Source: a phage. Taken from it: DNA of 64,000 nt. Position numbers and translations under genes: made by a program. Numbering within the stretch: position 1 is the first letter of the stretch; every line of letters begins with the position of its first letter. Of this stretch, positions 1-32,080 are shown piece by piece. Where the stretch lies: the sequence record PV730299.1. One strand, 5' to 3'. The notes beneath the pieces were generated by a model that searched no databases, was not told the origin of the DNA, and worked only from the letters and a program-made list of their open reading frames with translations.

Positions 1-1050
1 GATGAGTCCAACAGCTCGTCCAAGAAAGCATTCTGGTTGCACATGGTGACCACCGATGCCTATAAGGACAGCATGATCCGATGCTCCCTCGGTCTTGACG
101 GTTCGTACTCTGACATGGCAAAGACAATCTTCAATCAGTTGGAGTCGCGCACCAAGTTCGAAGACATCGACCCGTCGTATGGAATTCAAGAGCGGTTCGC
201 CACCCCGCTCTGGCCTGTGCTGCGATCTATTGATTATATGGCGAGCCGTTCTTATGACGAATTGTTCATGCCATTCGTGTTCTATGAAGACTTCAATGGC
301 TATCACTTCAAGAGCCTGACGACGTTGTTCAACCAGGGTAGCCAGTCATTGACAGCAGAAGAGAAGCAGGAACTAGCTCAGCAGAACAAGTTGTTCCGTG
401 ATCCTCAGGACGCGCCGCTCATGCAGGATAACAACTTCAATTCTGAGCGCTTTATGCGCACGATCATCAAGGCAGAGAAGAAGCTGGCGCGTGACCAGTT
501 CATGGCAAACTACCGCGATGTCCTGGCGGTGAACGAGCGCGTCTACGACTTTGAGACCAAGACAGTCACCCCAACACAGCGCATCTATACTGAGTGGTTT
601 GCAGAGACGGCTCACCTTGATCCGTTCCCGATGTTCTCAGATGAATTCAATCGTCAGAACGTCCGTTACATTGAAGCCCAGCCGGATGGAGCGGAGCAGA
701 TTGATTATGCTCGTCGTGTTATCAACTTCAGTCTTGCCAGCACTGTGATGCGCGTGTTGCTCGTTGGTGATAACCGCCTGAACGTCGGTCAGGTGTTCTA
801 CGTCGAAGACCAGTCCAACCGTCCTAAGAAGAACGAAAACCTGGCAGAGTTAAGTAAGCTATCGACAGGCCACTATATCGTGACCAAAGTGCGTCACAAG
901 ATTTCCCGCCTGACCAAAGATTATCAGTGCATCGCTGAGATTGCCAAGGACAGTTTGCTGGAGCAGGTGCTTCCACCTCAGACCAATCAGACAACTGCTT
1001 CCACCACTACTCCTCAGGCGATTGAGAAAGGCCAAGCACAGAAGGTTTAA
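1..1050 (+). CDS. virion structural protein, putative tail/baseplate component (5' end outside window)
   Basis: Frame-1 ORF open from base 1 (first Met at 37), stop at 1048-1050; followed 11 nt later by the tape-measure-like gene on the same strand; no catalytic motif recognised. Confidence 0.45.
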   Translation, partial: DESNSSSKKAFWLHMVTTDAYKDSMIRCSLGLDGSYSDMAKTIFNQLESRTKFEDIDPSYGIQERFATPLWPVLRSIDYMASRSYDELFMPFVFYEDFNGYHFKSLTTLFNQGSQSLTAEEKQELAQQNKLFRDPQDAPLMQDNNFNSERFMRTIIKAEKKLARDQFMANYRDVLAVNERVYDFETKTVTPTQRIYTEWFAETAHLDPFPMFSDEFNRQNVRYIEAQPDGAEQIDYARRVINFSLASTVMRVLLVGDNRLNVGQVFYVEDQSNRPKKNENLAELSKLSTGHYIVTKVRHKISRLTKDYQCIAEIAKDSLLEQVLPPQTNQTTASTTTPQAIEKGQAQKV

Positions 1051-1061
1051 CGAGGTGACCC

Positions 1062-3008
1062 ATGGCACAGGAAGCAACGAACAATGATGTTGTCAAAGTT
1101 CTAGACAAGATCAAGGCGGAGATGATGCAGCGCAAACAACTCCGCGCTCAGAATGAAACCAACAGACAGCTTGACCGGATGAACAAGAATCTGGCCAAGC
1201 TGGAATCTGCCACTAAACAGGGCACCAAGGCCGAGTCCAAGCCATTTGAAATCCGTATCCCGACAGTCAATGAGATCGTCATGGGATTCGCTCGCATGTC
1301 TCCGATCTTCACCCGCGACTTCAGCGTATGGATGAAGGATACTGTCGATGTGGGTAACGAAGGCAATCGGGAACTGGAGAATATCGCAGGCAAGATTGAC
1401 CGCCTCGGTGAGATCACCCGCATGCCAACAGATGACACGTCCCTGGAGTATCTTAACCTGATCTCAGACCAGCTGAAGTCTGCCAATGATGACACCCTCA
1501 AGCGCATGGACGAGCAGAGTGTGTCTCTGGTCCGCGTGGGATCATTCTTGAACATGATCGACGGAGTGATGATCGAGGTTCGTGACGATGTTGCTGAACT
1601 GAAAAAGAACTCCGATGACACCCTTACTCGCTTGTCTAGCATTGAAAACAAGATTGGACGCACGGGCGGTCATATCGTTGGAGTGTTGACACGCATCTTT
1701 GATGAAGACCAGAAGTGGCGTGAGAAGGACGAGATGCGCCGTGGGGAAACCGACAAAGAAACGGGTGGTCATCCTCAGGCGGGTTCTGTTATACCCAAAG
1801 ACGATGACCAGAAAGACGATTCCTCCGGTATCGGGGCTGCTGTGGCGGCCATGCTTGGCCTGAATGCACTGAAGGGCTTCTTGCTCAAGCCGTTCAAGAT
1901 CATCGGTGGTGTTGTCGGGACTTTCCTCGGCATGTTTTCCAAGCTGGGAGAAGGTATCACCAAACTTCTGGGTCCATTTGGGAAGGTGTTTAAGTTCCTG
2001 AAAGTCGGCCCACTGGCTCTCCTGTCTATGATCTGGGACTTCGGTAAAGGCTTCATTGATGCGAAGGAGATCCTGGGTAAAGGTGCTGTCACGATAGTTG
2101 ACCGAGTACGGGCGGGGATATCAGAACTGGTTGGTGGATTTGGTGATCTATTTGACTGGGTGTCCAAGATCTTTGGCTTTGATACCGAGGCGGGTGAAAC
2201 CCTGCGCAAATACACCCTCATGATCACTGAGGCTCCCTCTCGTTGGCTGAATGGTATTATCGACTGGATTAGCAACGACTTGTTTGCAGGGATCGGGAGA
2301 GACACGTCTCTTACGGATATCCCTGGCAAGTTAGCAGACAACCTACAGTCCGAGTTGATAAAGCTGGTAGACTGGATCACAGGGGGTATCAGTAGTGTGA
2401 TCGACGAGGGCATGGGTGTGGCCAACAAGGTCATTGACGATATCAAGAAGGGATTTGCCGAAAATGTGAAGAAACCTTTCTTCAACATGCTGAACACAAT
2501 CACCAATGCGATGTTCGATATCGTTGACAAGTTCGTCAGCATCATCCCTGACGCTCTGGGTGGACAGGCTGCGAAGCAGAAGATGGATGAGGCTCGCCAG
2601 TCTATGCTGATTGACACTGATGAGAATCCATCTCCTAATGTGACAGAGACCCAGCAGCCACAGACGCCAGCACAACCGAACATCGATCCACAAACGCTGA
2701 CTCCAATACCTTCTGGTGCGTCTTCGGATGACAAGAATATGACTAATGACCGCACCTCTCAGCTGAAAGCTGCGTATGGTTCTATCGGGGGTGGTACTCT
2801 GGGCGGGGCGATGCCATCACAAGGGAGGGCGCTGTCTAATATTGAACAAGTACAAGGCGGCTATTCACCGCCTCCAGCCAGCGTCGTGATGCCAGTACAG
2901 CAGAATGTGGATGCTTCTAAGAGGATCAACACGACCAATAACTTCAACAGCTCATATCTTGAGCCTGAGAACAAAACAGATAATTCCCGCATCCTGTGGG
3001 AATGGTAA
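1062..3008 (+). CDS. tape-measure-like / internal virion protein
   Basis: 648 aa; N-terminal coiled-coil-like region, central Gly-rich hydrophobic block (GIGAAVAAMLGLNALKGF...GGVVGTFLGMF), Pro/Gln-rich C-terminus; RBS GAGGTGA upstream of ATG. Confidence 0.5.
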   Translation: MAQEATNNDVVKVLDKIKAEMMQRKQLRAQNETNRQLDRMNKNLAKLESATKQGTKAESKPFEIRIPTVNEIVMGFARMSPIFTRDFSVWMKDTVDVGNEGNRELENIAGKIDRLGEITRMPTDDTSLEYLNLISDQLKSANDDTLKRMDEQSVSLVRVGSFLNMIDGVMIEVRDDVAELKKNSDDTLTRLSSIENKIGRTGGHIVGVLTRIFDEDQKWREKDEMRRGETDKETGGHPQAGSVIPKDDDQKDDSSGIGAAVAAMLGLNALKGFLLKPFKIIGGVVGTFLGMFSKLGEGITKLLGPFGKVFKFLKVGPLALLSMIWDFGKGFIDAKEILGKGAVTIVDRVRAGISELVGGFGDLFDWVSKIFGFDTEAGETLRKYTLMITEAPSRWLNGIIDWISNDLFAGIGRDTSLTDIPGKLADNLQSELIKLVDWITGGISSVIDEGMGVANKVIDDIKKGFAENVKKPFFNMLNTITNAMFDIVDKFVSIIPDALGGQAAKQKMDEARQSMLIDTDENPSPNVTETQQPQTPAQPNIDPQTLTPIPSGASSDDKNMTNDRTSQLKAAYGSIGGGTLGGAMPSQGRALSNIEQVQGGYSPPPASVVMPVQQNVDASKRINTTNNFNSSYLEPENKTDNSRILWEW

Positions 3009-17396: not shown

Positions 17397-17404
17397 TATA
17401 AATA
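17397..17404 (+). promoter_or_regulatory. T4-type late promoter-like box TATAAATA
   Basis: Exact TATAAATA 34 nt upstream of GTG start of gp54-like gene. Confidence 0.45.
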
Positions 17405-17438: not shown

Positions 17439-18383
17439 GTGGAAGACTATCGCAATTTTATCACACAGATATTACAGCGGGGCTTGTCGCGCAAGAACCG
17501 CTTCAGAGTGACCATCCCTCTACCACCAGGGATCTTTGACTCCAATGCCACTCTGGCTAATGACGGAAAGGCGTACAGAACCAATTCATCTTTTGGTGAC
17601 TTGTTTAAGCAGTCAGCCCGTATTGTAAACGCTTTCTTTGGAGGGACAAACCAGACGTCCCGTTCCCTTCAGATGATGTGTATGGTTGCCTCATTGCCAG
17701 GGGTTGGTATCGACACCACTCCAATGACAAACAACGGTAATCACATCAAGATGCCGAACAACAAGTCCAACGTCGACCTCGACTTGTCATTCTTATTAGC
17801 CAATGACTATTATGAGAAGTCTGTGATGGACAAGTGGAAGAGTCTGATCTTTGATCCACACACCACCAAAATGGGATATTACGAAGACTTCGTGACTGAC
17901 ATATGCATTGAACAGCTTGACACCGAAGATCAAGTGGTCCACCGCGTCTACATCGTCGAGGCTCACCCAATAAATTTCAGTTCTATTGAGCTGGATAAAG
18001 GCGCCACAGACCAGTTCAACCAATACAACATTTCTTTCTCTTACAATAAAGTGCTTTCGGAGACAGAATATGAAACACGCAGCCTTTCCAGCGATTTTCT
18101 TCCTCTCGGCATTGCTGACGCTCTTACCAGTGGTGACTGGGAAACTGCGGCCTCAAAAGCTGGACAGCTTTATCGCAAGGTGAAAGAAGGGAACTTCACA
18201 GGAGAGGCTCTCCTGGCTTACAAACAGCTTGACCAACTTGTAAACAACCTGGCTGGGATAAGCATACAGGACTTCGAGCGCATCTCGGTAGGTATCTCTC
18301 GTGACATCATGGGTAACGATAACCTGACGGCGGCGGAGAAGACAAGCCTGTTGGGAATATTACAAGACGTGATGGGGAAATAA
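17439..18383 (+). CDS. tail tube-family protein (gp19/gp54-like, baseplate tube initiator candidate)
   Basis: 314 aa; N-terminal RKNRFRVTI and CMVASLPGVGIDT...WKS pattern matching T4 gp19/gp48/gp54 tube fold; GTG start with GGAG RBS; TATAAATA box 34 nt upstream. Confidence 0.6.
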   Translation: MEDYRNFITQILQRGLSRKNRFRVTIPLPPGIFDSNATLANDGKAYRTNSSFGDLFKQSARIVNAFFGGTNQTSRSLQMMCMVASLPGVGIDTTPMTNNGNHIKMPNNKSNVDLDLSFLLANDYYEKSVMDKWKSLIFDPHTTKMGYYEDFVTDICIEQLDTEDQVVHRVYIVEAHPINFSSIELDKGATDQFNQYNISFSYNKVLSETEYETRSLSSDFLPLGIADALTSGDWETAASKAGQLYRKVKEGNFTGEALLAYKQLDQLVNNLAGISIQDFERISVGISRDIMGNDNLTAAEKTSLLGILQDVMGK

Positions 18384-21190: not shown

Positions 21191-21682
21191 TTAACGGGTG
21201 ATGATTTTGCTATCAGGCAGGATCAGACCAGGGTGGTCCAGGTTCTTCTGCATCTGTTGGATACTCTGCAGGATCACGGTAGTGTCGATGTGGCGTTTCA
21301 CTTTGCGCGCTTCATCACCGTAGGAGATCTGCCCCTGAGGATCGATGTAGTGGGCTGTCACAACCTGCAGATCATAACCACACTTGATCAGGTACTTGGC
21401 AATGTTGCTAACTTCGAGAGACAGGGACTCACCGTCCACACCGATGTTGGCTGAGTAGACGATTACGCCATTTTCTACTGCTTTTGGTTCAAACAAAACC
21501 ATACCAGCGATCGTCTGGATCAAAGGAACTCCCTCGGTATCGAAAGCCACCTGATCGAACGCACCGATGAACTCATCCGGCACTTTACCTTCGGCATCAG
21601 AAACTGTGTGTTTCATAAGGTCCAGGACGTGTTGTTGTACTTCCTCAATCGGAGCACGTTCAACGGGTTTTTCGTTTTGCAT
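21191..21682 (-). CDS. hypothetical protein
   Basis: Start moved to MQNEK (GGAG RBS, 8-nt spacing). Confidence 0.4.
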   Translation of the reverse strand: MQNEKPVERAPIEEVQQHVLDLMKHTVSDAEGKVPDEFIGAFDQVAFDTEGVPLIQTIAGMVLFEPKAVENGVIVYSANIGVDGESLSLEVSNIAKYLIKCGYDLQVVTAHYIDPQGQISYGDEARKVKRHIDTTVILQSIQQMQKNLDHPGLILPDSKIITR

Positions 21683-22190
21683 TACTTTTCTCCAGTTCAT
21701 AATCGCGCTCCACAACGTATTGGTAGACACGCATCTTAATATAGTCAGCACTGCCTGCTGAAGACAGTACCATCCATCCACTACTAAGGGCATTCATCTT
21801 ATATTGACCAACACCCTCTTGAAAATAACTTTTAATCTGTTCCAGCTTTCGCCCACGATGATAATACGAGATGAGTTCGCCGATGACAATACAATCTGGA
21901 TAATGCTTTTCCAATGTATTGATGTTGCGGTGAACATATACGGGTAGAACTTCTTCATCGTCGATAGGGCTGTAGTATGGGTCTACGATGACCACTTGTA
22001 GACCATAACGCAGCAGGTCTTTGACACCCAGCCGACAGAACTTATAATCTTCGTGTTTCATTGCCACATGGAGGATATTCTCTTTCTTGGCATAATCGGT
22101 CAGGAAGATAAAGAAGTCTGTGTTGGGATCGGGATATTGTATAGACAGTTCTTTGCCTATTTCACTAAAACAAAATCCGCGCATTTTCAT
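21660..22190 (-). CDS. hypothetical protein
   Basis: 176-aa ORF; no motif recognised. Confidence 0.4.
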   Translation of the reverse strand: MKMRGFCFSEIGKELSIQYPDPNTDFFIFLTDYAKKENILHVAMKHEDYKFCRLGVKDLLRYGLQVVIVDPYYSPIDDEEVLPVYVHRNINTLEKHYPDCIVIGELISYYHRGRKLEQIKSYFQEGVGQYKMNALSSGWMVLSSAGSADYIKMRVYQYVVERDYELEKSNAKRKTR

Positions 22191-22233: not shown

Positions 22234-23040
22234 ATGAATTTACCATCATTGCCCAGAACAGAAAAGACATATAAAAGCGACTTTTGGCCTACTGTGATCA
22301 AATATCGCGCCTTTACTGCGGGGCAACAAACTTTATTACTTCAGGTGTCAGATCCGCAAACGCCGATTGAAGAACGCGCGGCCATGATGGAGAGTCTCTT
22401 TAGCGAGTGTGTAAATGCAGGCGCACCTTTCAGTAAACTGCCAATCGGCGTTGTTGAGGAAGTGTTCATCCGCATGCGCATGATCTCCATCGGTGAATTG
22501 ATGAAGATTCGTTATAAGTGCAATAATCAGATTGAAGAAACGATCGATCTGGGAGATGGTCAAGAAAAGCACCAGATGGTTCCCTGTGAGCAGGAACTGA
22601 CTCTACCTATCCCGTTGAACAATGTCAAATGCATTGCTCAGGACGGCTTCCGGGAAACATTTGACCTGCCAGGTGGATATCACCTCAAGATGCGCCAACC
22701 TTCCTTCTCGGACGCTACGGCACTGTCTGATGCTGCAAGTGTTGAGATGATGCTGGCCACCTTTATCGACTGTCTGTACGATGATGACGGTCAGGTGTGG
22801 AAGGTTGAGAATCCTGAAGAAATCGGAATCACTCCAGAAGAGGCTACTGAGCGCCGCCGTGTGAAAGAAGCGTTTGTTGAGTGGGTGAAGGATAACATCG
22901 AATCAGATGTTATTGACAGCATTACGAAGAACTTCTTCCACAAAATACCGCGCATCCACTACAAGAGTTCGATCAAGTGTCCGAAATGTGGTAAGGAGCA
23001 CAAAATCGAATTCAATAGTATTAATGAAATTTTCATTTAA
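22234..23040 (+). CDS. hypothetical protein with C-terminal zinc ribbon (possible baseplate-associated)
   Basis: Start moved to MNLPSL (GGAG RBS); C-terminal CPKCGKEH; first gene of plus-strand block ending with gp5-like and gp25-like genes. Confidence 0.45.
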   Translation: MNLPSLPRTEKTYKSDFWPTVIKYRAFTAGQQTLLLQVSDPQTPIEERAAMMESLFSECVNAGAPFSKLPIGVVEEVFIRMRMISIGELMKIRYKCNNQIEETIDLGDGQEKHQMVPCEQELTLPIPLNNVKCIAQDGFRETFDLPGGYHLKMRQPSFSDATALSDAASVEMMLATFIDCLYDDDGQVWKVENPEEIGITPEEATERRRVKEAFVEWVKDNIESDVIDSITKNFFHKIPRIHYKSSIKCPKCGKEHKIEFNSINEIFI

Positions 23041-23189
23041 TGTTTGAAACTGATTTATTATCCTACTTCGTGATGTGTGATGAATTGAAGTTACACGGCT
23101 ATAGCATATTTGAAATCAACGAGTCGATGCCATGGCATCTTGACTTGTTAACCGAAGCCCTCAAGGTCAGGTTGTCTAAGAAACAGTAA
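23040..23189 (+). CDS. small ORF (49 aa)
   Basis: ATG overlapping stop of upstream gene (TAATG); ends just before a strong terminator. Confidence 0.25.
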   Translation: MFETDLLSYFVMCDELKLHGYSIFEINESMPWHLDLLTEALKVRLSKKQ

Positions 23190-23213
23190 TCCCGCTTCGG
23201 CGGGATTTTTATT
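23188..23213 (+). terminator. rho-independent terminator
   Basis: ATCCCGC-ttcg-GCGGGAT followed by TTTTTATT, after plus-strand genes ending at 23040/23189. Confidence 0.65.
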
Positions 23214-23510
23214 GGCTTAACTGCAAAATAGGTTAACACGCGTTCTCTTTACCTAAAATTGTTATAATGGGCTTGTTCCCGAGTCATTTGTTGGTGTTTG
23301 TCTGTTTTGAATCAGATTGTCAGTAAAATACCATTTTTCAAGGAGTGTTCTGGGGTGTACAGTTATTGCCTCGCCCTTATGCCTCCATGGCATTGGAATG
23401 GTGCTGCCCGCATAGGGCGGTTTGATGAGCGAAGCGAATAGGATCGAATAAAACAAATAAAATGAACGGAAGCAGAGCTTCCTATAGTATATAAGGCAAA
23501 ATCAGCTGCG

Positions 23511-23518
23511 CATAAATA
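23511..23518 (+). promoter_or_regulatory. late promoter-like box, variant CATAAATA
   Basis: 34 nt upstream of gp5-like ATG, same spacing as the exact boxes. Confidence 0.35.
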
Positions 23519-23552: not shown

Positions 23553-25163
23553 ATGTTAGACAATATGAGATGGTTTTACGGCACCGTTGAAGATGTCAAC
23601 GATCCAGACCAAAACGGGCGCGTCGCCGTCCGCATATATGGCGTACACACCGACGATCCCGTCCTCCTGCCTACAGACAAACTCCCATGGGCGAAGGTAC
23701 TGATGCCTGCTTCTAACGCCTCCTCTGCTGGTTTAGGTTGGTCTCCAACGGGTATCATTCCTGGTACTGAGGTTATGGGGTTCGCCCTTGACGAAGCATA
23801 CCAGAATTTACGCATCACCTGGACTTGGACTGGTTCAAGCCCTACTGATGGCGCCGACACAAACCCGCTGGCTCTCGGGCAGGTCGTTCAATCTGTAGAA
23901 CGTCAGGCGTACAACGCTGTCACTGACGTTCCTGTGAAACAAGAAGACGAACCACAACCAGATCCACAACCACCTGTTGGTGGGTATGATCCAGAGAAGT
24001 GGATGACAATCGCTCGTGGCGAATTGGGTATCAAGGAGTACGCCGGAAAGTTCAATAACAACCCGCGCATTATAGAATATCACAAGACAACCTCCCTTGG
24101 TGCTTCTGAAGATGAAGTGTCGTGGTGTGCGGCGTTCGTGGGTTGGGTTATGATACAGGCTGGATACACGTCTACACGCTCCGCTCTTGCCCGATCTTAC
24201 CTTACATGGGGCACTGCACTGTCAGCACCACAATATGGCGCTATCGTAGTCTTCCGGCGTGGTAACAACCCTACATTTGGACACGTAGCGTTTGTGCAGA
24301 AGTTCGATGCAAACTATGTCTGGTGTATTGGTGGCAACCAATCCGATTCAGTGAAGGTCAGTCGTTTCAGACGTTCTTCGGTCTTGGGATATCGTTGGCC
24401 TGGTCCTGCTAACACAGCCACAGCCGCGCCTGCGCAGCAGAATGGTAAATGGTCAGAACCTATCCCAGATCGTACTCCAAAGGAACAACCGACTCCGGCT
24501 CCTACTGGGCGAGTACAGGATATTGACAACACTGGAGAAACCATGGTTCCGGCTGCGGGTGGCTCTAAATACCCGTACAATAACGTCATGGTGTCCCGAG
24601 CTGGGCATATTATGGAAGTGGATGACACCCCTGGTGGTGAACGTCTTCATTGGATGCATAAGTCTGGGTCTTACAAGCAAATGTTGCCGGATGGTGATGT
24701 GGTCAACAAGTCCGTCAAAGACCACTATGACCTGACGATGTTCAACAAGCGTTATTATGTCGGCGGGGACCACAACCTGACGGTCAAAGGAACTGAAGTT
24801 CAGCGCAAGACAGGTGAGGTCTATCATTTGCATTCCAACAATTACTCCAACGTGGTTGCGGGCACAGCGCTGATGAAATTCAGTGACCTAGCCGAGTTTC
24901 AAGCGCAGAATATTCTGCGCATTATCTGCGAGACTCTGGAGGTCGGTGGGACATTGAAGGTTCCTAAGATTCTAACGACTGAGATCATCGCTGACAAACT
25001 GACTGTCGCTCAGACGATCAATGGTAACATCATATATGCCGAAGGTGCTGGTCGCGCTTCTTCTCTGTCAGGTGCAACCCCTGCATCCCCTACGGGTCCG
25101 GGTGAGATTGACATCAAGGCAGAATTAAAAGACAATGGTGGTAATTTCGGCACCAAAGAGTAA
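23553..25163 (+). CDS. baseplate central spike/hub protein with CHAP peptidase domain (gp5-like)
   Basis: 536 aa; N-terminal OB-like YGTVEDVNDPDQNGRVAVRIYGVHTD; central Cys/His amidase pair (SWCAAFVGW ... FGHVAFV) typical of CHAP/NlpC-P60; C-terminal beta-helix-like region. Confidence 0.7.
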   Translation: MLDNMRWFYGTVEDVNDPDQNGRVAVRIYGVHTDDPVLLPTDKLPWAKVLMPASNASSAGLGWSPTGIIPGTEVMGFALDEAYQNLRITWTWTGSSPTDGADTNPLALGQVVQSVERQAYNAVTDVPVKQEDEPQPDPQPPVGGYDPEKWMTIARGELGIKEYAGKFNNNPRIIEYHKTTSLGASEDEVSWCAAFVGWVMIQAGYTSTRSALARSYLTWGTALSAPQYGAIVVFRRGNNPTFGHVAFVQKFDANYVWCIGGNQSDSVKVSRFRRSSVLGYRWPGPANTATAAPAQQNGKWSEPIPDRTPKEQPTPAPTGRVQDIDNTGETMVPAAGGSKYPYNNVMVSRAGHIMEVDDTPGGERLHWMHKSGSYKQMLPDGDVVNKSVKDHYDLTMFNKRYYVGGDHNLTVKGTEVQRKTGEVYHLHSNNYSNVVAGTALMKFSDLAEFQAQNILRIICETLEVGGTLKVPKILTTEIIADKLTVAQTINGNIIYAEGAGRASSLSGATPASPTGPGEIDIKAELKDNGGNFGTKE

Positions 25164-25236: not shown

Positions 25237-25617
25237 ATGAAAGAGTATAAAGATGTCGATCTGAAGTTCGGCATGCATCCGGTGACCAAAGACGTCACTA
25301 TGAAATCAGGTGTGTATGCTGTCTTACAATCCGTGCGGAATATCGTCATGTCTTCAGTCGGGGACTGGCCCACTTATCCTGGGATCGGCGCGGGGCTTTA
25401 TGGGCTGTTGGGTGAAAACACGACACCGACTATCCAGGTAGATGTGAAGAACAAAGTAGAGGACGCTATCGCCCTGTATGAACCCAGAGCAGAGGTAGAA
25501 GAAGTCACGGTGAGTCTGTCAGAGGATTACCATTCTCTGGGCGTGACCATCACATTCTATGTGGTCAACAATCCAGATCCAATAACAGACACCGTGTGGT
25601 TGAAAAGGACGAATTAG
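25237..25617 (+). CDS. baseplate wedge protein (gp25/GPW family)
   Basis: 126 aa; typical gp25-like size and pattern. Confidence 0.75.
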   Translation: MKEYKDVDLKFGMHPVTKDVTMKSGVYAVLQSVRNIVMSSVGDWPTYPGIGAGLYGLLGENTTPTIQVDVKNKVEDAIALYEPRAEVEEVTVSLSEDYHSLGVTITFYVVNNPDPITDTVWLKRTN

Positions 25618-30310: not shown

Positions 30311-31153
30311 TTAAATGTCGTACAGATCGTTGACTTCCAGCATCAGGCGGGTGAAGTCGCCGCGCCCGTTGCGGTCAGACTTGTCGAACTCGATGATACT
30401 GAACGGCTGAACCCATTCAGGGTACTCATCACCGACGCCAACACCATCGATCTTCAGGGTTCCGGCCTCCAGCTTGGCGTTGAAGTCGCGGAAGGAACTG
30501 ACGTACTTTTCAAGGGCGCTGTCGCGCAGGCGCTTGTTGGACTGTTTGATGTCACCGTTGACAAAGATGTAAGTCGAGTCAGATGCGCGGGTCAGTAGGT
30601 TCTTCAGCTGCTCCATATCACATTCCTGCGCTTCTTCAATGATCAGGAAGGTGTCGTCAAAGGTCATCCCCTTGATGGTCTCCAGATCCTGGATCTCAAT
30701 GATCCGCTTCTCCCACAGATAGTTGAAGAAACCGTCGCTACCTGTGTCAGTCTTCAGCACCTTCTTCAGCGTCTGAATCAGGGGCATCAGATATGGCATC
30801 AGCTTTTCGTATGTGTCGCCAGGGCGGAAGCCTGCAGTCTGGCCTGTTGGCAGCGGAGAGCGCGTGATGACGATCTTACTGACCACTTTATCGATCAGGA
30901 GCTTGGCGGCGGCTGAGGCACCGCAGTACGATTTACCTGTACCGGCAGGACCGATTGCGATAGTGAGGTTTTCTTCAAGAGCAGATTGATATGCGAGGTT
31001 CTGATTCTCTGAGAGGCCATTGAACGGAGCGATTCTGAAGTCACCTTTAGAGAACTTCATCCAGTCATCTTCTTTCTGAATTGTCTCTTTCTTACGTGCT
31101 GACTTGGTCTTGCCCGCTGGCTTCTTACTTACAACTTTGGTGGCAGATTGCAT
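30311..31153 (-). CDS. phoH: PhoH-like ATPase
   Basis: 280 aa; Walker A GPAGTGKSY. Confidence 0.8.
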   Translation of the reverse strand: MQSATKVVSKKPAGKTKSARKKETIQKEDDWMKFSKGDFRIAPFNGLSENQNLAYQSALEENLTIAIGPAGTGKSYCGASAAAKLLIDKVVSKIVITRSPLPTGQTAGFRPGDTYEKLMPYLMPLIQTLKKVLKTDTGSDGFFNYLWEKRIIEIQDLETIKGMTFDDTFLIIEEAQECDMEQLKNLLTRASDSTYIFVNGDIKQSNKRLRDSALEKYVSSFRDFNAKLEAGTLKIDGVGVGDEYPEWVQPFSIIEFDKSDRNGRGDFTRLMLEVNDLYDI

Positions 31154-31255: not shown

Positions 31256-32050
31256 TTAACTGAAACTCTTGTATGCTGCTGCGAGCTTCTTGTCGTACTG
31301 GTTCTTGGCATACGCCGGACCATTATAGCGCCGTGCAAATTCAGACCAGTTCTTGTCCTTCAGAGCCTGCCAGAGCTTGGCGTCAGCCTTGATGAACTTC
31401 ACGAATGCCATCAAATGAGCACGTTCTCCTGTCAGGAAGTCGTTGAACATCTCCTTGGCGTTGGCATATCCACAGACCTGGCAGTTGAATCCCATGATCT
31501 GGAAGAGACCGTAAGAGGCGCTCTCGTACGCACAATCCTCATCGATGTTGATGGCCGCATGAAGTCGATCCAACTCCGCGTCGCCTCCCGTGTACCCGCC
31601 TGCAGAAGGGTTGACCAACGTCGGGTACATATGTCCCATGGCATTCGCCCGAGCCTGTCCGAACTTCGCCATCAACTTCTTATACATGATGTGGCGCTCA
31701 AATAATGTCTTGATCTTACCTGACTTGGTGAAGCCCGTGCCGCGCGACTCAACCTGATTCACCGCCTTGACAGAGGCAAGGTCAACACCCAGATCGTTAG
31801 CAGCATCAATCAGGTCTGACTCAGTTAGATGATCCTGATGGGCGTCTCCAGCGTTGCGAATAGCATAGGAGGTCTTTGGACCCACGATACCATCAATGAC
31901 AAGCCCCGCACCCGCCTGAACAGTCTTGACGGCGTTCTCTGTTGCCTTGCCAAAGATACCATCAGCGACGAGGGTGAAGCCGATTTTGTTGAGGCTATCC
32001 TGGAGTGCCTTCACTTCAGTGCCACGGTTGCCAAGTTTTAGAATGGCCAT
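31256..32050 (-). CDS. endolysin (peptidoglycan-binding domain + muramidase-like catalytic domain)
   Basis: Start moved to MAILKLG (GGAGG RBS); N-terminal PG-binding-like repeat (LKLGNRGTEVKALQ..., IDGIVGPKT); C-terminal block VESRG...YGLFQIMGFN; terminator downstream. Confidence 0.7.
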   Translation of the reverse strand: MAILKLGNRGTEVKALQDSLNKIGFTLVADGIFGKATENAVKTVQAGAGLVIDGIVGPKTSYAIRNAGDAHQDHLTESDLIDAANDLGVDLASVKAVNQVESRGTGFTKSGKIKTLFERHIMYKKLMAKFGQARANAMGHMYPTLVNPSAGGYTGGDAELDRLHAAINIDEDCAYESASYGLFQIMGFNCQVCGYANAKEMFNDFLTGERAHLMAFVKFIKADAKLWQALKDKNWSEFARRYNGPAYAKNQYDKKLAAAYKSFS

Positions 32051-32080
32051 AAGAAAATACCTCCACAATGAATGTAGAGG

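What the first reader, a model, noticed from the sequence alone, without database searches (positions are those of the whole stretch)
23553..25163. gp5-like central spike carrying a CHAP (Cys/His amidase-peptidase) domain
The N-terminal OB-like region and C-terminal beta-helix-like region resemble a baseplate puncturing protein, but the enzymatic insert has the CHAP/NlpC-P60 Cys-His signature (SWCAAFVGW ... FGHVAFV) rather than a lysozyme fold. That implies peptide cross-link cleavage rather than glycan cleavage during entry.
Basis: partly seen in the sequence, partly recalled or inferred. Interest (0 to 1): 0.5.

Follow-up and report, generated by a model that had tools for sequence, protein, structure and literature searches.

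The report
Phage tail spike carrying cysteine peptidase
This gene encodes the needle at the tip of an Ackermannviridae (ViI/CBA120-like) phage tail, with a cysteine peptidase-type cell-wall enzyme where phage T4 has a lysozyme.

Summary

The gene lies between gp26-like and gp25-like baseplate genes. Its LIMEstone1 and ViI orthologues were found in virions. The phage has a separate muramidase endolysin.

"Cross-link cleavage" is over-specific, because the bond cut is unknown. The beta-helix claim is only partly supported.

It is not new. Kutter et al. 2011 reported the same CHAP/TIGR02594 insert at aa 150-282 in CBA120 gp5, which is 85% identical. I found no biochemistry and no solved structure for this domain.

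In passing, I found a conserved, possibly structured RNA element upstream of the gene.

The parts
23553..25163 (+). gp5-like baseplate central spike gene (536 aa plus stop codon)
   Evidence: ORF. PHROG 430 E 2.3e-154. 99.6% aa identity to Escherichia phage vB_EcoM-RPN242 gp068. 85% identity to CBA120 orf092 gp5.
23553..23837 (+). N-terminal OB-fold domain (residues 1-95), the predicted gp27-binding base of the spike
   Evidence: Pfam Gp5_OB E 1.9e-12, or 1.1e-13 on the fragment, plus a weak Phage_base_V match. phmmer to T4 gp5 residues 6-101. AF2 pLDDT 79-90 with a beta-barrel strand pattern.
23838..23987 (+). Linker 1 (residues 96-145), rich in Pro, Gln, Asp and Val
   Evidence: Composition. 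pLDDT below 50 for residues 96-139. The second half is poorly conserved in A1.
23988..24407 (+). TIGR02594 domain (NlpC/P60-CHAP superfamily cysteine hydrolase), residues 146-285
24126..24128 (+). Codon of Cys192, the predicted catalytic nucleophile at the start of helix 192-202
   Evidence: TGT codon. Invariant in 23 orthologues and in the 73-sequence TIGR02594 alignment. Helix position.
24282..24284 (+). Codon of His244, the predicted general base on strand 243-251
   Evidence: CAC codon. Invariant in A1 and A3. It aligns with the conserved His of the phi812 hub C51 domain.
24336..24341 (+). Codons of Asn262 and Gln263 (GGNQ motif), the predicted third polar residue(s) of the triad
   Evidence: Invariant in A1 and A3. 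The role is inferred from the spacing after the His, not tested.
24408..24560 (+). Linker 2 (residues 286-336), rich in Ala, Pro and Thr
   Evidence: Composition. pLDDT below 50 for residues 293-340.
24561..24962 (+). gp5C-like trimerisation/needle segment (residues 337-470)
   Evidence: phmmer aligns residues 337-430 to T4 gp5 385-475 (stretch E about 3e-13) and to the KP1 spike. The same stretch aligns to P0124, where Pfam Gp5_trimer_C matches. A few VxGxxxxx-like octads lie at residues 403-442, but there is no significant period-8 signal.
24963..25160 (+). C-terminal tail (residues 471-536) with no T4 counterpart; conserved NGGNF near the end
   Evidence: No Pfam match. Conserved within Ackermannviridae. 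pLDDT 40-50. P0125 and P0127 match residues 333-533.
23511..23518 (+). CATAAATA, a 7/8 match to the T4 late-promoter box TATAAATA, 35 nt upstream of the ATG
   Evidence: Sequence. An ATAAATA box is kept upstream of gp5 in all seven Ackermannviridae aligned. The exact TATAAATA box occurs 35 nt upstream of the tail-tube gene at 17439. Function is inferred.
22234..23040 (+). gp26-like baseplate hub gene upstream
   Evidence: Pfam T4_baseplate E 1.2e-46 and PHROG 150 'baseplate hub'. The same gene order is found in CBA120, phiEa2809 and Serratia 3M.
25237..25617 (+). gp25-like baseplate wedge gene downstream
   Evidence: Pfam GPW_gp25 E 3.1e-08 and PHROG 261.
1..1050 (+). 3' part of a hub/tail protein gene cut by the window start; the likely gp27-like partner of the spike
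   Evidence: PHROG 350 'tail protein' E 2.5e-65, matching profile positions 110-434 of 436. In LIMEstone1 a gp27 homologue sits next to a 71-kDa tape-measure protein, as does the 648-aa ORF here at 1062-3008. Assignment is by synteny and no Pfam gp27 model matched.
31256..32068 (-). The phage's separate endolysin (PG_binding_1 plus N-acetylmuramidase)
   Evidence: Pfam Muramidase PF11860 E 6e-59 and PG_binding_1 E 1.4e-14. It shows that host lysis uses a glycosidase unrelated to the spike enzyme.

Best explanation
The gene encodes the central cell-puncturing spike of an Ackermannviridae (Aglimvirinae, Agtrevirus-like) myovirus. It is the orthologue of CBA120/ViI gp5.

By homology with T4 gp5, three copies should form the tip of the tail tube. 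The N-terminal OB domains would sit under a gp27-like hub trimer. The C-terminal segments (from about residue 337) would intertwine into a short needle. Three enzymatic domains would hang on flexible Pro-rich linkers between the two.

The enzymatic domain is not a lysozyme. It is a TIGR02594-type papain-like cysteine hydrolase of the NlpC/P60-CHAP superfamily, with Cys192 as nucleophile, His244 as base and Asn262/Gln263 as the third residue.

After the tailspikes digest O-antigen or capsule and the sheath contracts, the spike would carry these domains through the outer membrane into the periplasm. There they would locally cut the peptide part of peptidoglycan. The most likely target is the stem peptide (gamma-D-Glu-mDAP). 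The D-Ala-mDAP cross-link or the MurNAc-L-Ala amide bond are less likely. This would open a hole for the tail tube.

Shown here: domain composition, fold class, conservation of the catalytic residues and baseplate gene context. Shown in published proteomics: orthologues are present in virions. Inferred: trimeric assembly with gp27, delivery to the periplasm, catalytic activity and bond specificity.
Against: I found no enzymatic data for this protein or for any TIGR02594 member. No solved structure of the family is detectable by sequence. The AF2 monomer cannot model the trimeric needle (pLDDT 40-80 after residue 337). Pfam Gp5_C and Gp5_trimer_C do not match directly, and residues 431-536 have no T4 counterpart. 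The gp27 partner is assigned only by PHROG match and synteny. No T4 gp5.4-like PAAR cap was detected, so the tip architecture may differ from T4. A catalytic cysteine exposed on a virion can be oxidised. Activity in the particle is therefore assumed, not shown.
Confidence: 0.8

Rival explanations
1. The architecture is the same, but the domain is an N-acetylmuramoyl-L-alanine amidase that strips whole stem peptides from the glycan, rather than an endopeptidase.
Confidence: 0.12
2. The domain cuts the D-Ala-mDAP cross-link as a DD-endopeptidase, like MepS or Tae2/Tae3.
Against: Endopeptidases whose entries carry DL/D,L annotation score slightly higher and are more numerous among the top hits. 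Fold similarity does not determine bond specificity in this superfamily.
Confidence: 0.2
3. The domain is retained mainly as a structural or assembly module. Its catalysis is dispensable for infection under ordinary conditions, as reported for several virion-associated lysins.
For: The review PMC6116005 states that virion lysins are often not required under laboratory conditions and help mainly on cells with thick or highly cross-linked walls.
Against: The strict invariance of C192, H244 and N262/Q263 across orthologues down to 59% identity, and across the wider family, indicates selection for catalysis.
Confidence: 0.15
4. The protein is a soluble endolysin or lysis accessory mis-called as a baseplate protein.
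For: Stand-alone TIGR02594 proteins look like endolysins. Examples are ICP1 gp207 (PG_binding_1 plus CHAP) and Pseudomonas phage ZC01_075, which lies next to holin and Rz genes.
Against: This protein has the gp5 OB domain and a gp5C segment and lies between baseplate genes. Orthologues were detected in virions. A separate muramidase endolysin is encoded at 31256-32068.
Confidence: 0.02

Closest known systems
gp5 of Escherichia phage CBA120 (orf092) and its ViI, PhiSH19 and LIMEstone1 orthologues (Ackermannviridae)
   Same: It is an orthologue: 85% identity over 535 aa, the same length and the same gp26-gp5-gp25 gene order. Kutter et al. 2011 reported a CHAP/TIGR02594 domain at aa 150-282, flanked by T4 gp5-like regions at 3-109 and 334-437. 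These are the boundaries found here. The GenBank note for PhiSH19 reads 'Gp5 OB family & CHAP domain'. LIMEstone1 ORF61 was detected in virions.
   Different: It differs only at the sequence level, being an Aglimvirinae copy rather than a Cvivirinae one. Some genera (Serratia 3M, Erwinia phiEa2809 and relatives) carry an extra C-terminal extension of about 70-80 aa that is absent here.
Bacteriophage T4 gp5 (tail-associated lysozyme, cell-puncturing device)
   Same: The N-terminal OB domain and the first part of the C-terminal needle are homologous (E 2.7e-30 overall). It is the Foldseek top hit. The position among baseplate genes is the same, and so is the presumed role as a trimeric spike that carries a wall-degrading domain into the periplasm.
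   Different: The T4 GH24 lysozyme domain is replaced by an unrelated papain-like cysteine hydrolase. The needle is shorter and its distal part is unrelated. The T4 spike lysozyme is related to the T4 endolysin (stated in PMC3184105), whereas here the spike enzyme and the endolysin (PF11860 muramidase) are unrelated. No gp5.4-like PAAR protein was detected. T4-type self-cleavage was not assessed.
TIGR02594 family proteins (stand-alone phage endolysin-like proteins and T6SS effectors)
   Same: The catalytic domain scores 129 bits against a cut-off of 70.6 and is 40-57% identical to bacterial and phage members. The invariant Cys, His and GGNQ are shared.
   Different: Those proteins are soluble. 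They are fused to PG_binding_1, LysM, or GH108 plus PG_binding_3 modules, or are delivered by T6SS. Here the domain is inserted into a virion spike.
Hub-borne NlpC/P60 or CHAP hydrolases of contractile systems that target Gram-positive cells: diffocin Hub-Hydrolase CD1368 and the Staphylococcus phage phi812 hub protein C51 domain
   Different: The scaffold proteins and target cell envelopes differ. The sequence relation is weak or undetectable: a 0.09-0.16 E-value match restricted to the His strand of the phi812 domain. The review PMC6116005 says endopeptidase-type virion lysins occur almost exclusively in phages of Gram-positive bacteria.
Other gp5-scaffold spikes with swapped enzymatic modules (metagenomic)
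   Same: All have the Gp5_OB N-terminus. Several carry the same TIGR02594/CHAP domain: P0128 and Rhizobium phage RHph_Y68 have OB plus CHAP only, and P0121 and P0124 have OB plus SLT plus CHAP plus gp5C.
   Different: Modules and order vary. Examples are SLT plus CHAP double enzymes, NlpC/P60 PF00877 (P0026), a VgrG3-like/GH46 domain (P0029), Amidase_2 with an S74 chaperone (P0125), CHAP after the Gp5_C repeats (P0126) and no enzyme at all (P0127).

Membership tests
T4 gp5-type baseplate central spike | N-terminal OB-fold domain (Pfam Gp5_OB) | tested here: met
   E 1.9e-12 at 48 bits, above the 25-bit cut-off. phmmer to T4 gp5 residues 6-101.
T4 gp5-type baseplate central spike | Central GH24 lysozyme domain | tested here: not met
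   No Phage_lysozyme match. T4 gp5 does not align to residues 94-336. The domain folds as NlpC/P60-CHAP. The common annotation 'tail lysozyme' is therefore a misnomer.
T4 gp5-type baseplate central spike | C-terminal trimeric beta-helix (gp5C) | tested here: inconclusive
   Residues 337-430 are homologous to T4 gp5 385-475 and to a stretch of P0124 that matches Pfam Gp5_trimer_C. However, neither Gp5_C nor Gp5_trimer_C matches directly. There is no period-8 signal. The monomer model cannot show a trimeric helix.
T4 gp5-type baseplate central spike | Encoded among baseplate hub and wedge genes | tested here: met
   gp26-like gene at 22234-23040 and gp25-like gene at 25237-25617. The synteny is conserved in seven other Ackermannviridae.
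T4 gp5-type baseplate central spike | Present in the virion as a trimer bound to a gp27 trimer; maturation cleavage between the enzyme domain and gp5C | not testable with these tools
   Orthologues were found in virions by mass spectrometry. Stoichiometry, gp27 binding and cleavage cannot be computed here.
NlpC/P60-CHAP superfamily (papain-like peptidoglycan cysteine hydrolases) | Alpha+beta papain-like fold | tested here: met
NlpC/P60-CHAP superfamily (papain-like peptidoglycan cysteine hydrolases) | Catalytic Cys at the N-terminus of a helix, His on a following beta-strand, and a third polar residue | tested here: met
   C192 starts helix 192-202. H244 lies on strand 243-251. N262/Q263 follow strand 255-261. 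All are invariant.
NlpC/P60-CHAP superfamily (papain-like peptidoglycan cysteine hydrolases) | Hydrolysis of a peptidoglycan peptide or amide bond | not testable with these tools
   This needs sacculus digestion and muropeptide analysis. I found no published data.
TIGR02594 (NCBIfam subfamily) | Score above the curated cut-off over the full model | tested here: met
   129.3 bits against 70.55, covering model positions 2-132 of 132.
Classical CHAP (Pfam PF05257 / MEROPS C51) | Pfam CHAP score above the gathering threshold; closest structures are C51 CHAP domains | tested here: inconclusive

The most novel reading that the evidence does not exclude
TIGR02594 is a branch of the NlpC/P60-CHAP superfamily for which I found no biochemistry and no solved structure. 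In this spike it might have a bond specificity, or an activation mechanism, unlike both the T4 lysozyme paradigm and the characterised C40/C51 enzymes. One example would be cutting the D-Ala-mDAP cross-link or the Lpp-peptidoglycan link. Another would be release or unmasking of the domain only after needle dissociation. That would make Ackermannviridae a tractable model of peptidase-driven wall penetration by a myovirus of Gram-negative bacteria. A 2018 review treats that class as almost exclusive to phages of Gram-positive bacteria.
Probability: 0.15. Interest if true: 0.45.

Novelty: already known. Interest (0 to 1): 0.2.

Why it matters
The finding shows that the enzymatic 'warhead' on the T4-type spike scaffold is exchangeable. 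It also shows that the routine annotation 'tail lysozyme' is chemically wrong for about 280 sequenced Ackermannviridae phages, many of which are used for biocontrol or therapy. The spike enzyme is a candidate Gram-negative-active peptidoglycan peptidase whose bond specificity and structure are still undetermined. As a discovery it adds nothing to the 2011 description of CBA120 gp5. Its value lies in confirming that description and correcting annotation.

Tried and rejected
2. T4-like octapeptide beta-helix periodicity in residues 340-500. Fourier analysis of hydrophobicity gave no period-8 signal (z -0.3 and -0.9). Pfam Gp5_C and Gp5_trimer_C gave no hit even at E up to 10.
3. A solved structure of a TIGR02594 relative. 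phmmer with the domain and hmmsearch with the 73-sequence profile found only a marginal match to the phi812 hub C51 domain (E 0.09-0.16). The other hits belonged to GH108 or PG-binding modules of the bacterial homologues.
4. Published biochemistry of TIGR02594 or of the Ackermannviridae spike. Six papers mention TIGR02594. The four I opened mention it only as an annotation. No paper links CHAP to the modern genus names. No paper combines Ackermannviridae, cryo-EM and central spike.
5. A gp5.4-like PAAR cap. tblastn with T4-type gp5.4 found 1422 phage records. Salmonella, the commonest first word among Ackermannviridae-like records, was not among the ten commonest names in that result. Nothing matched in the window. 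This is only a weak negative.
6. A Pfam gp27 assignment for the cut ORF at 1-1050. No match, only PHROG 350.
7. For the upstream RNA-like element: Rfam gave no match over the element. Single-sequence folding z-scores were not significant on either strand. There is no second copy in the window. MAFFT alignment to more distant genera was too unreliable to extend the structure.

Full report
OBSERVATION. An ATG-to-stop ORF of 536 aa occupies exactly 23553..25163 on the + strand. The ORFs that overlap it on the opposite strand are short, were not examined, and are taken to be spurious. Pfam finds Gp5_OB (39-96, E 1.9e-12) and CHAP (187-262, E 6e-11), both above their curated cut-offs, and no lysozyme family. 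NCBIfam places residues 150-282 in TIGR02594 (E 1.1e-37, 129 bits against a cut-off of 70.6). [quoted passage not shown] Against PDB sequences, T4 gp5 and the Klebsiella phage KP1 central spike align to residues 1-93 and 337-430 but not to the middle.

SOURCE AND CONTEXT. The window is from an Ackermannviridae phage of subfamily Aglimvirinae. The 10 kb around the gene is 98-99% identical to Enterobacter phage fGh-Ecl02 and to Escherichia phages YX22, A221, RPN242 and AV101. The protein is 99.6% identical to RPN242 gp068. About 280 phage records carry a full-length homologue.

The gene order is as follows:
- a gp26-like hub gene at 22234-23040;
- a 49-aa ORF at 23040-23189;
- a terminator at 23188-23207;
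- a 345-bp spacer;
- gp5;
- a gp25-like wedge gene at 25237-25617;
- then, on the other strand, two unknown genes, glutaredoxin, nrdB and nrdA.

The gp26-gap-gp5-gp25 arrangement is kept in CBA120, Klebsiella phage Magnus, Serratia phage 3M, Erwinia phage phiEa2809 and two metagenomic relatives. The window starts inside a hub/tail protein gene (PHROG 350), followed by a 648-aa tape-measure-like gene. By synteny with LIMEstone1 this is the gp27-like partner. The phage's endolysin is a separate PG_binding_1 plus PF11860 muramidase at 31256-32068 on the - strand.

ANATOMY. The protein divides into six regions:
- Residues 1-95: OB domain.
- Residues 96-145: Pro/Gln-rich linker with low model confidence.
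- Residues 146-285: TIGR02594 domain.
- Residues 286-336: Ala/Pro/Thr-rich linker.
- Residues 337-470: gp5C-like segment.
- Residues 471-536: a family-specific tail ending in a conserved NGGNF motif.

In 23 orthologues of 59-87% identity, C192, H244, N262 and Q263 are invariant. They are at least 90% conserved in 119 relatives and invariant in a 73-sequence alignment of the domain family.

The AlphaFold model of the domain is confident (pLDDT 85.4, pTM 0.83). C192 opens a helix. H244 lies on the next long strand. N262/Q263 follow the strand after that. This is the canonical order for papain-like NlpC/P60-CHAP enzymes.

The C-terminal claim is weaker. Only residues 337-430 are homologous to T4 gp5 (385-475). 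The same stretch aligns to a metagenomic spike, P0124, in which Pfam Gp5_trimer_C matches. Pfam does not match this protein directly. I found no period-8 signal.

MECHANISM. By homology with T4, the protein should trimerise on a gp27-like hub at the tube tip. Sheath contraction would drive it through the outer membrane, delivering three tethered cysteine hydrolase domains to the periplasm. There they would cut the peptide moiety of murein locally. The architecture, fold class, catalytic residues and gene context are shown here. Virion location is shown for orthologues: LIMEstone1 ORF61 in PMC3296691 and ViI as cited in PMC3184105. Assembly, delivery, activity and bond specificity are inferred.

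The top structural neighbours include enzymes annotated as DL-endopeptidases, so cleavage within the stem peptide is my first choice. MepS-like cross-link cleavage and CHAP-type amidase activity cannot be excluded.

COMPARISON WITH WHAT IS KNOWN. The architecture is already published. Kutter et al. [quoted passage not shown] They reported instead a putative CHAP domain at aa 150-282 belonging to TIGR02594 of the NlpC/P60 superfamily. They also reported that it is flanked by regions 3-109 and 334-437 shared with T4 gp5, and that the ViI orthologue is a virion protein. The window protein is 85% identical to it without gaps. The GenBank record of PhiSH19 carries the same note.

I found nothing beyond this in silico description. 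The four TIGR02594 papers I opened mention it only as an annotation. No paper links CHAP with the current Ackermannviridae genus names. No baseplate cryo-EM paper turned up. No solved structure of a family member is detectable by sequence. A 2018 review states that endopeptidase-type virion lysins occur almost exclusively in phages of Gram-positive bacteria (PMC6116005). So the case is under-appreciated, but it is not new.

WIDER FAMILY. In the library clustered at 50% identity, only one representative covers the full length, so the Ackermannviridae form one tight group there. The gp5 scaffold, however, carries many different enzyme modules:
- OB plus CHAP without a needle (Rhizobium phage RHph_Y68, P0024, P0025, P0128);
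- OB plus SLT plus CHAP plus gp5C (P0121, P0124);
- OB plus NlpC/P60 PF00877 (P0026);
- OB plus a VgrG3-like/GH46 domain (P0029);
- OB plus gp5C plus Amidase_2 plus an S74 chaperone (P0125);
- CHAP placed after the Gp5_C repeats (P0126);
- no enzyme at all (P0127).

VERDICT. It is a routine member of a known, already described kind. Interest is low (0.2). The open questions are biochemical: which bond is cut, how the domain is activated, and what its structure is.

SIDE OBSERVATION. The 345-bp spacer upstream of gp5 is unusually conserved between subfamilies. The blocks at 23346-23425 and 23462-23490 are nearly identical to CBA120, while the flanks diverge. About 270 phage records share the spacer. 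It starts after a TTGTTATAAT box at 23259-23268. It contains three hairpins, at 23379-23393, 23403-23421 and 23468-23482. Two of these show compensatory changes between genera, and conserved G-U pairs favour the + strand. On a named structure, 98% of cells pair and 5 of 26 pairs change on both sides. The covariation score is 0.218, against 0.114 for shuffles (0 of 500 reach it) and at most 0.069 for slid controls.

Several cautions apply. Only six sequences from three clades were used, and the structure was derived from them. Folding z-scores are not significant. Rfam has no match. One-base indels inside the conserved block argue against a coding function. It may be a small RNA or a 5' regulatory element, and it remains unresolved.

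Noticed in passing
window 23259-23500 (+), between the terminator at 23188-23207 and the gp5 start: This is a conserved non-coding element upstream of gp5. It has a TTGTTATAAT box and three hairpins (23379-23393, 23403-23421, 23468-23482). Two hairpins show compensatory base changes between Agtrevirus/Limestonevirus, Kuttervirus and Taipeivirus, and conserved G-U pairs favour the + strand. The covariation score is 0.218 against 0.114 for shuffles (0 of 500 reach it). However, only 6 sequences were used, folding z-scores are not significant and Rfam has no match. It is a candidate small RNA or leader element.
   Followed up: partly
L002 3752-4468 (Vibrio phage ICP1 gp207, MW794173.1): [quoted passage not shown] It is in fact a 238-aa PG_binding_1 plus CHAP/TIGR02594 protein with no OB or gp5C part. 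That is an endolysin-like architecture, probably mis-named by similarity to the Ackermannviridae spike. It sits between nrdAB and phoH, a neighbourhood resembling the one in this window.
   Followed up: partly
window 31256-32068 (-): The phage's endolysin is a PG_binding_1 plus N-acetylmuramidase (PF11860) protein next to phoH (30311-31153). The 2011 CBA120 paper said that no lysis enzyme had yet been identified in that phage.
   Followed up: partly
Proteins P0014-P0020, P0022 and P0023 (gp5 orthologues of Serratia 3M, Erwinia phiEa2809 and relatives): These orthologues carry an extra C-terminal extension of about 70-80 aa. A low-complexity Ser/Thr/Ala stretch is followed by a conserved block similar to 'VIILRQxGSKPxMMLSNGxTWE'. 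The extension is absent from the window protein and from Kuttervirus. Its function is unknown; it could be a tip or chaperone module.
   Followed up: no
Proteins P0121, P0124, P0125, P0126 and P0026 (metagenomic gp5-like spikes): The gp5 scaffold carries combinatorial enzymatic modules. Examples are SLT plus CHAP double-enzyme spikes, Amidase_2 with an S74 intramolecular chaperone, CHAP placed after the Gp5_C repeats, and NlpC/P60 PF00877.
   Followed up: partly
window 22021-22048 (+): A perfect sigma-70 consensus promoter (TTGACA, 16 nt, TATAAT; 12 of 12 positions) lies upstream of the gp26-like baseplate gene, inside the 5' end of the divergent gene 21660-22190. This is unexpected for a structural gene in a phage with T4-like late-promoter boxes (TATAAATA at 17397 upstream of the tail-tube gene; CATAAATA at 23511 upstream of gp5).
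   Followed up: no
whole window; phage collection: No T4 gp5.4-like PAAR protein is detectable in the 64-kb window. Salmonella, the commonest first word among Ackermannviridae-like records, is not among the ten commonest names in the gp5.4 tblastn result. The spike tip may therefore be capped differently or not at all. This is only a weak negative.
   Followed up: partly
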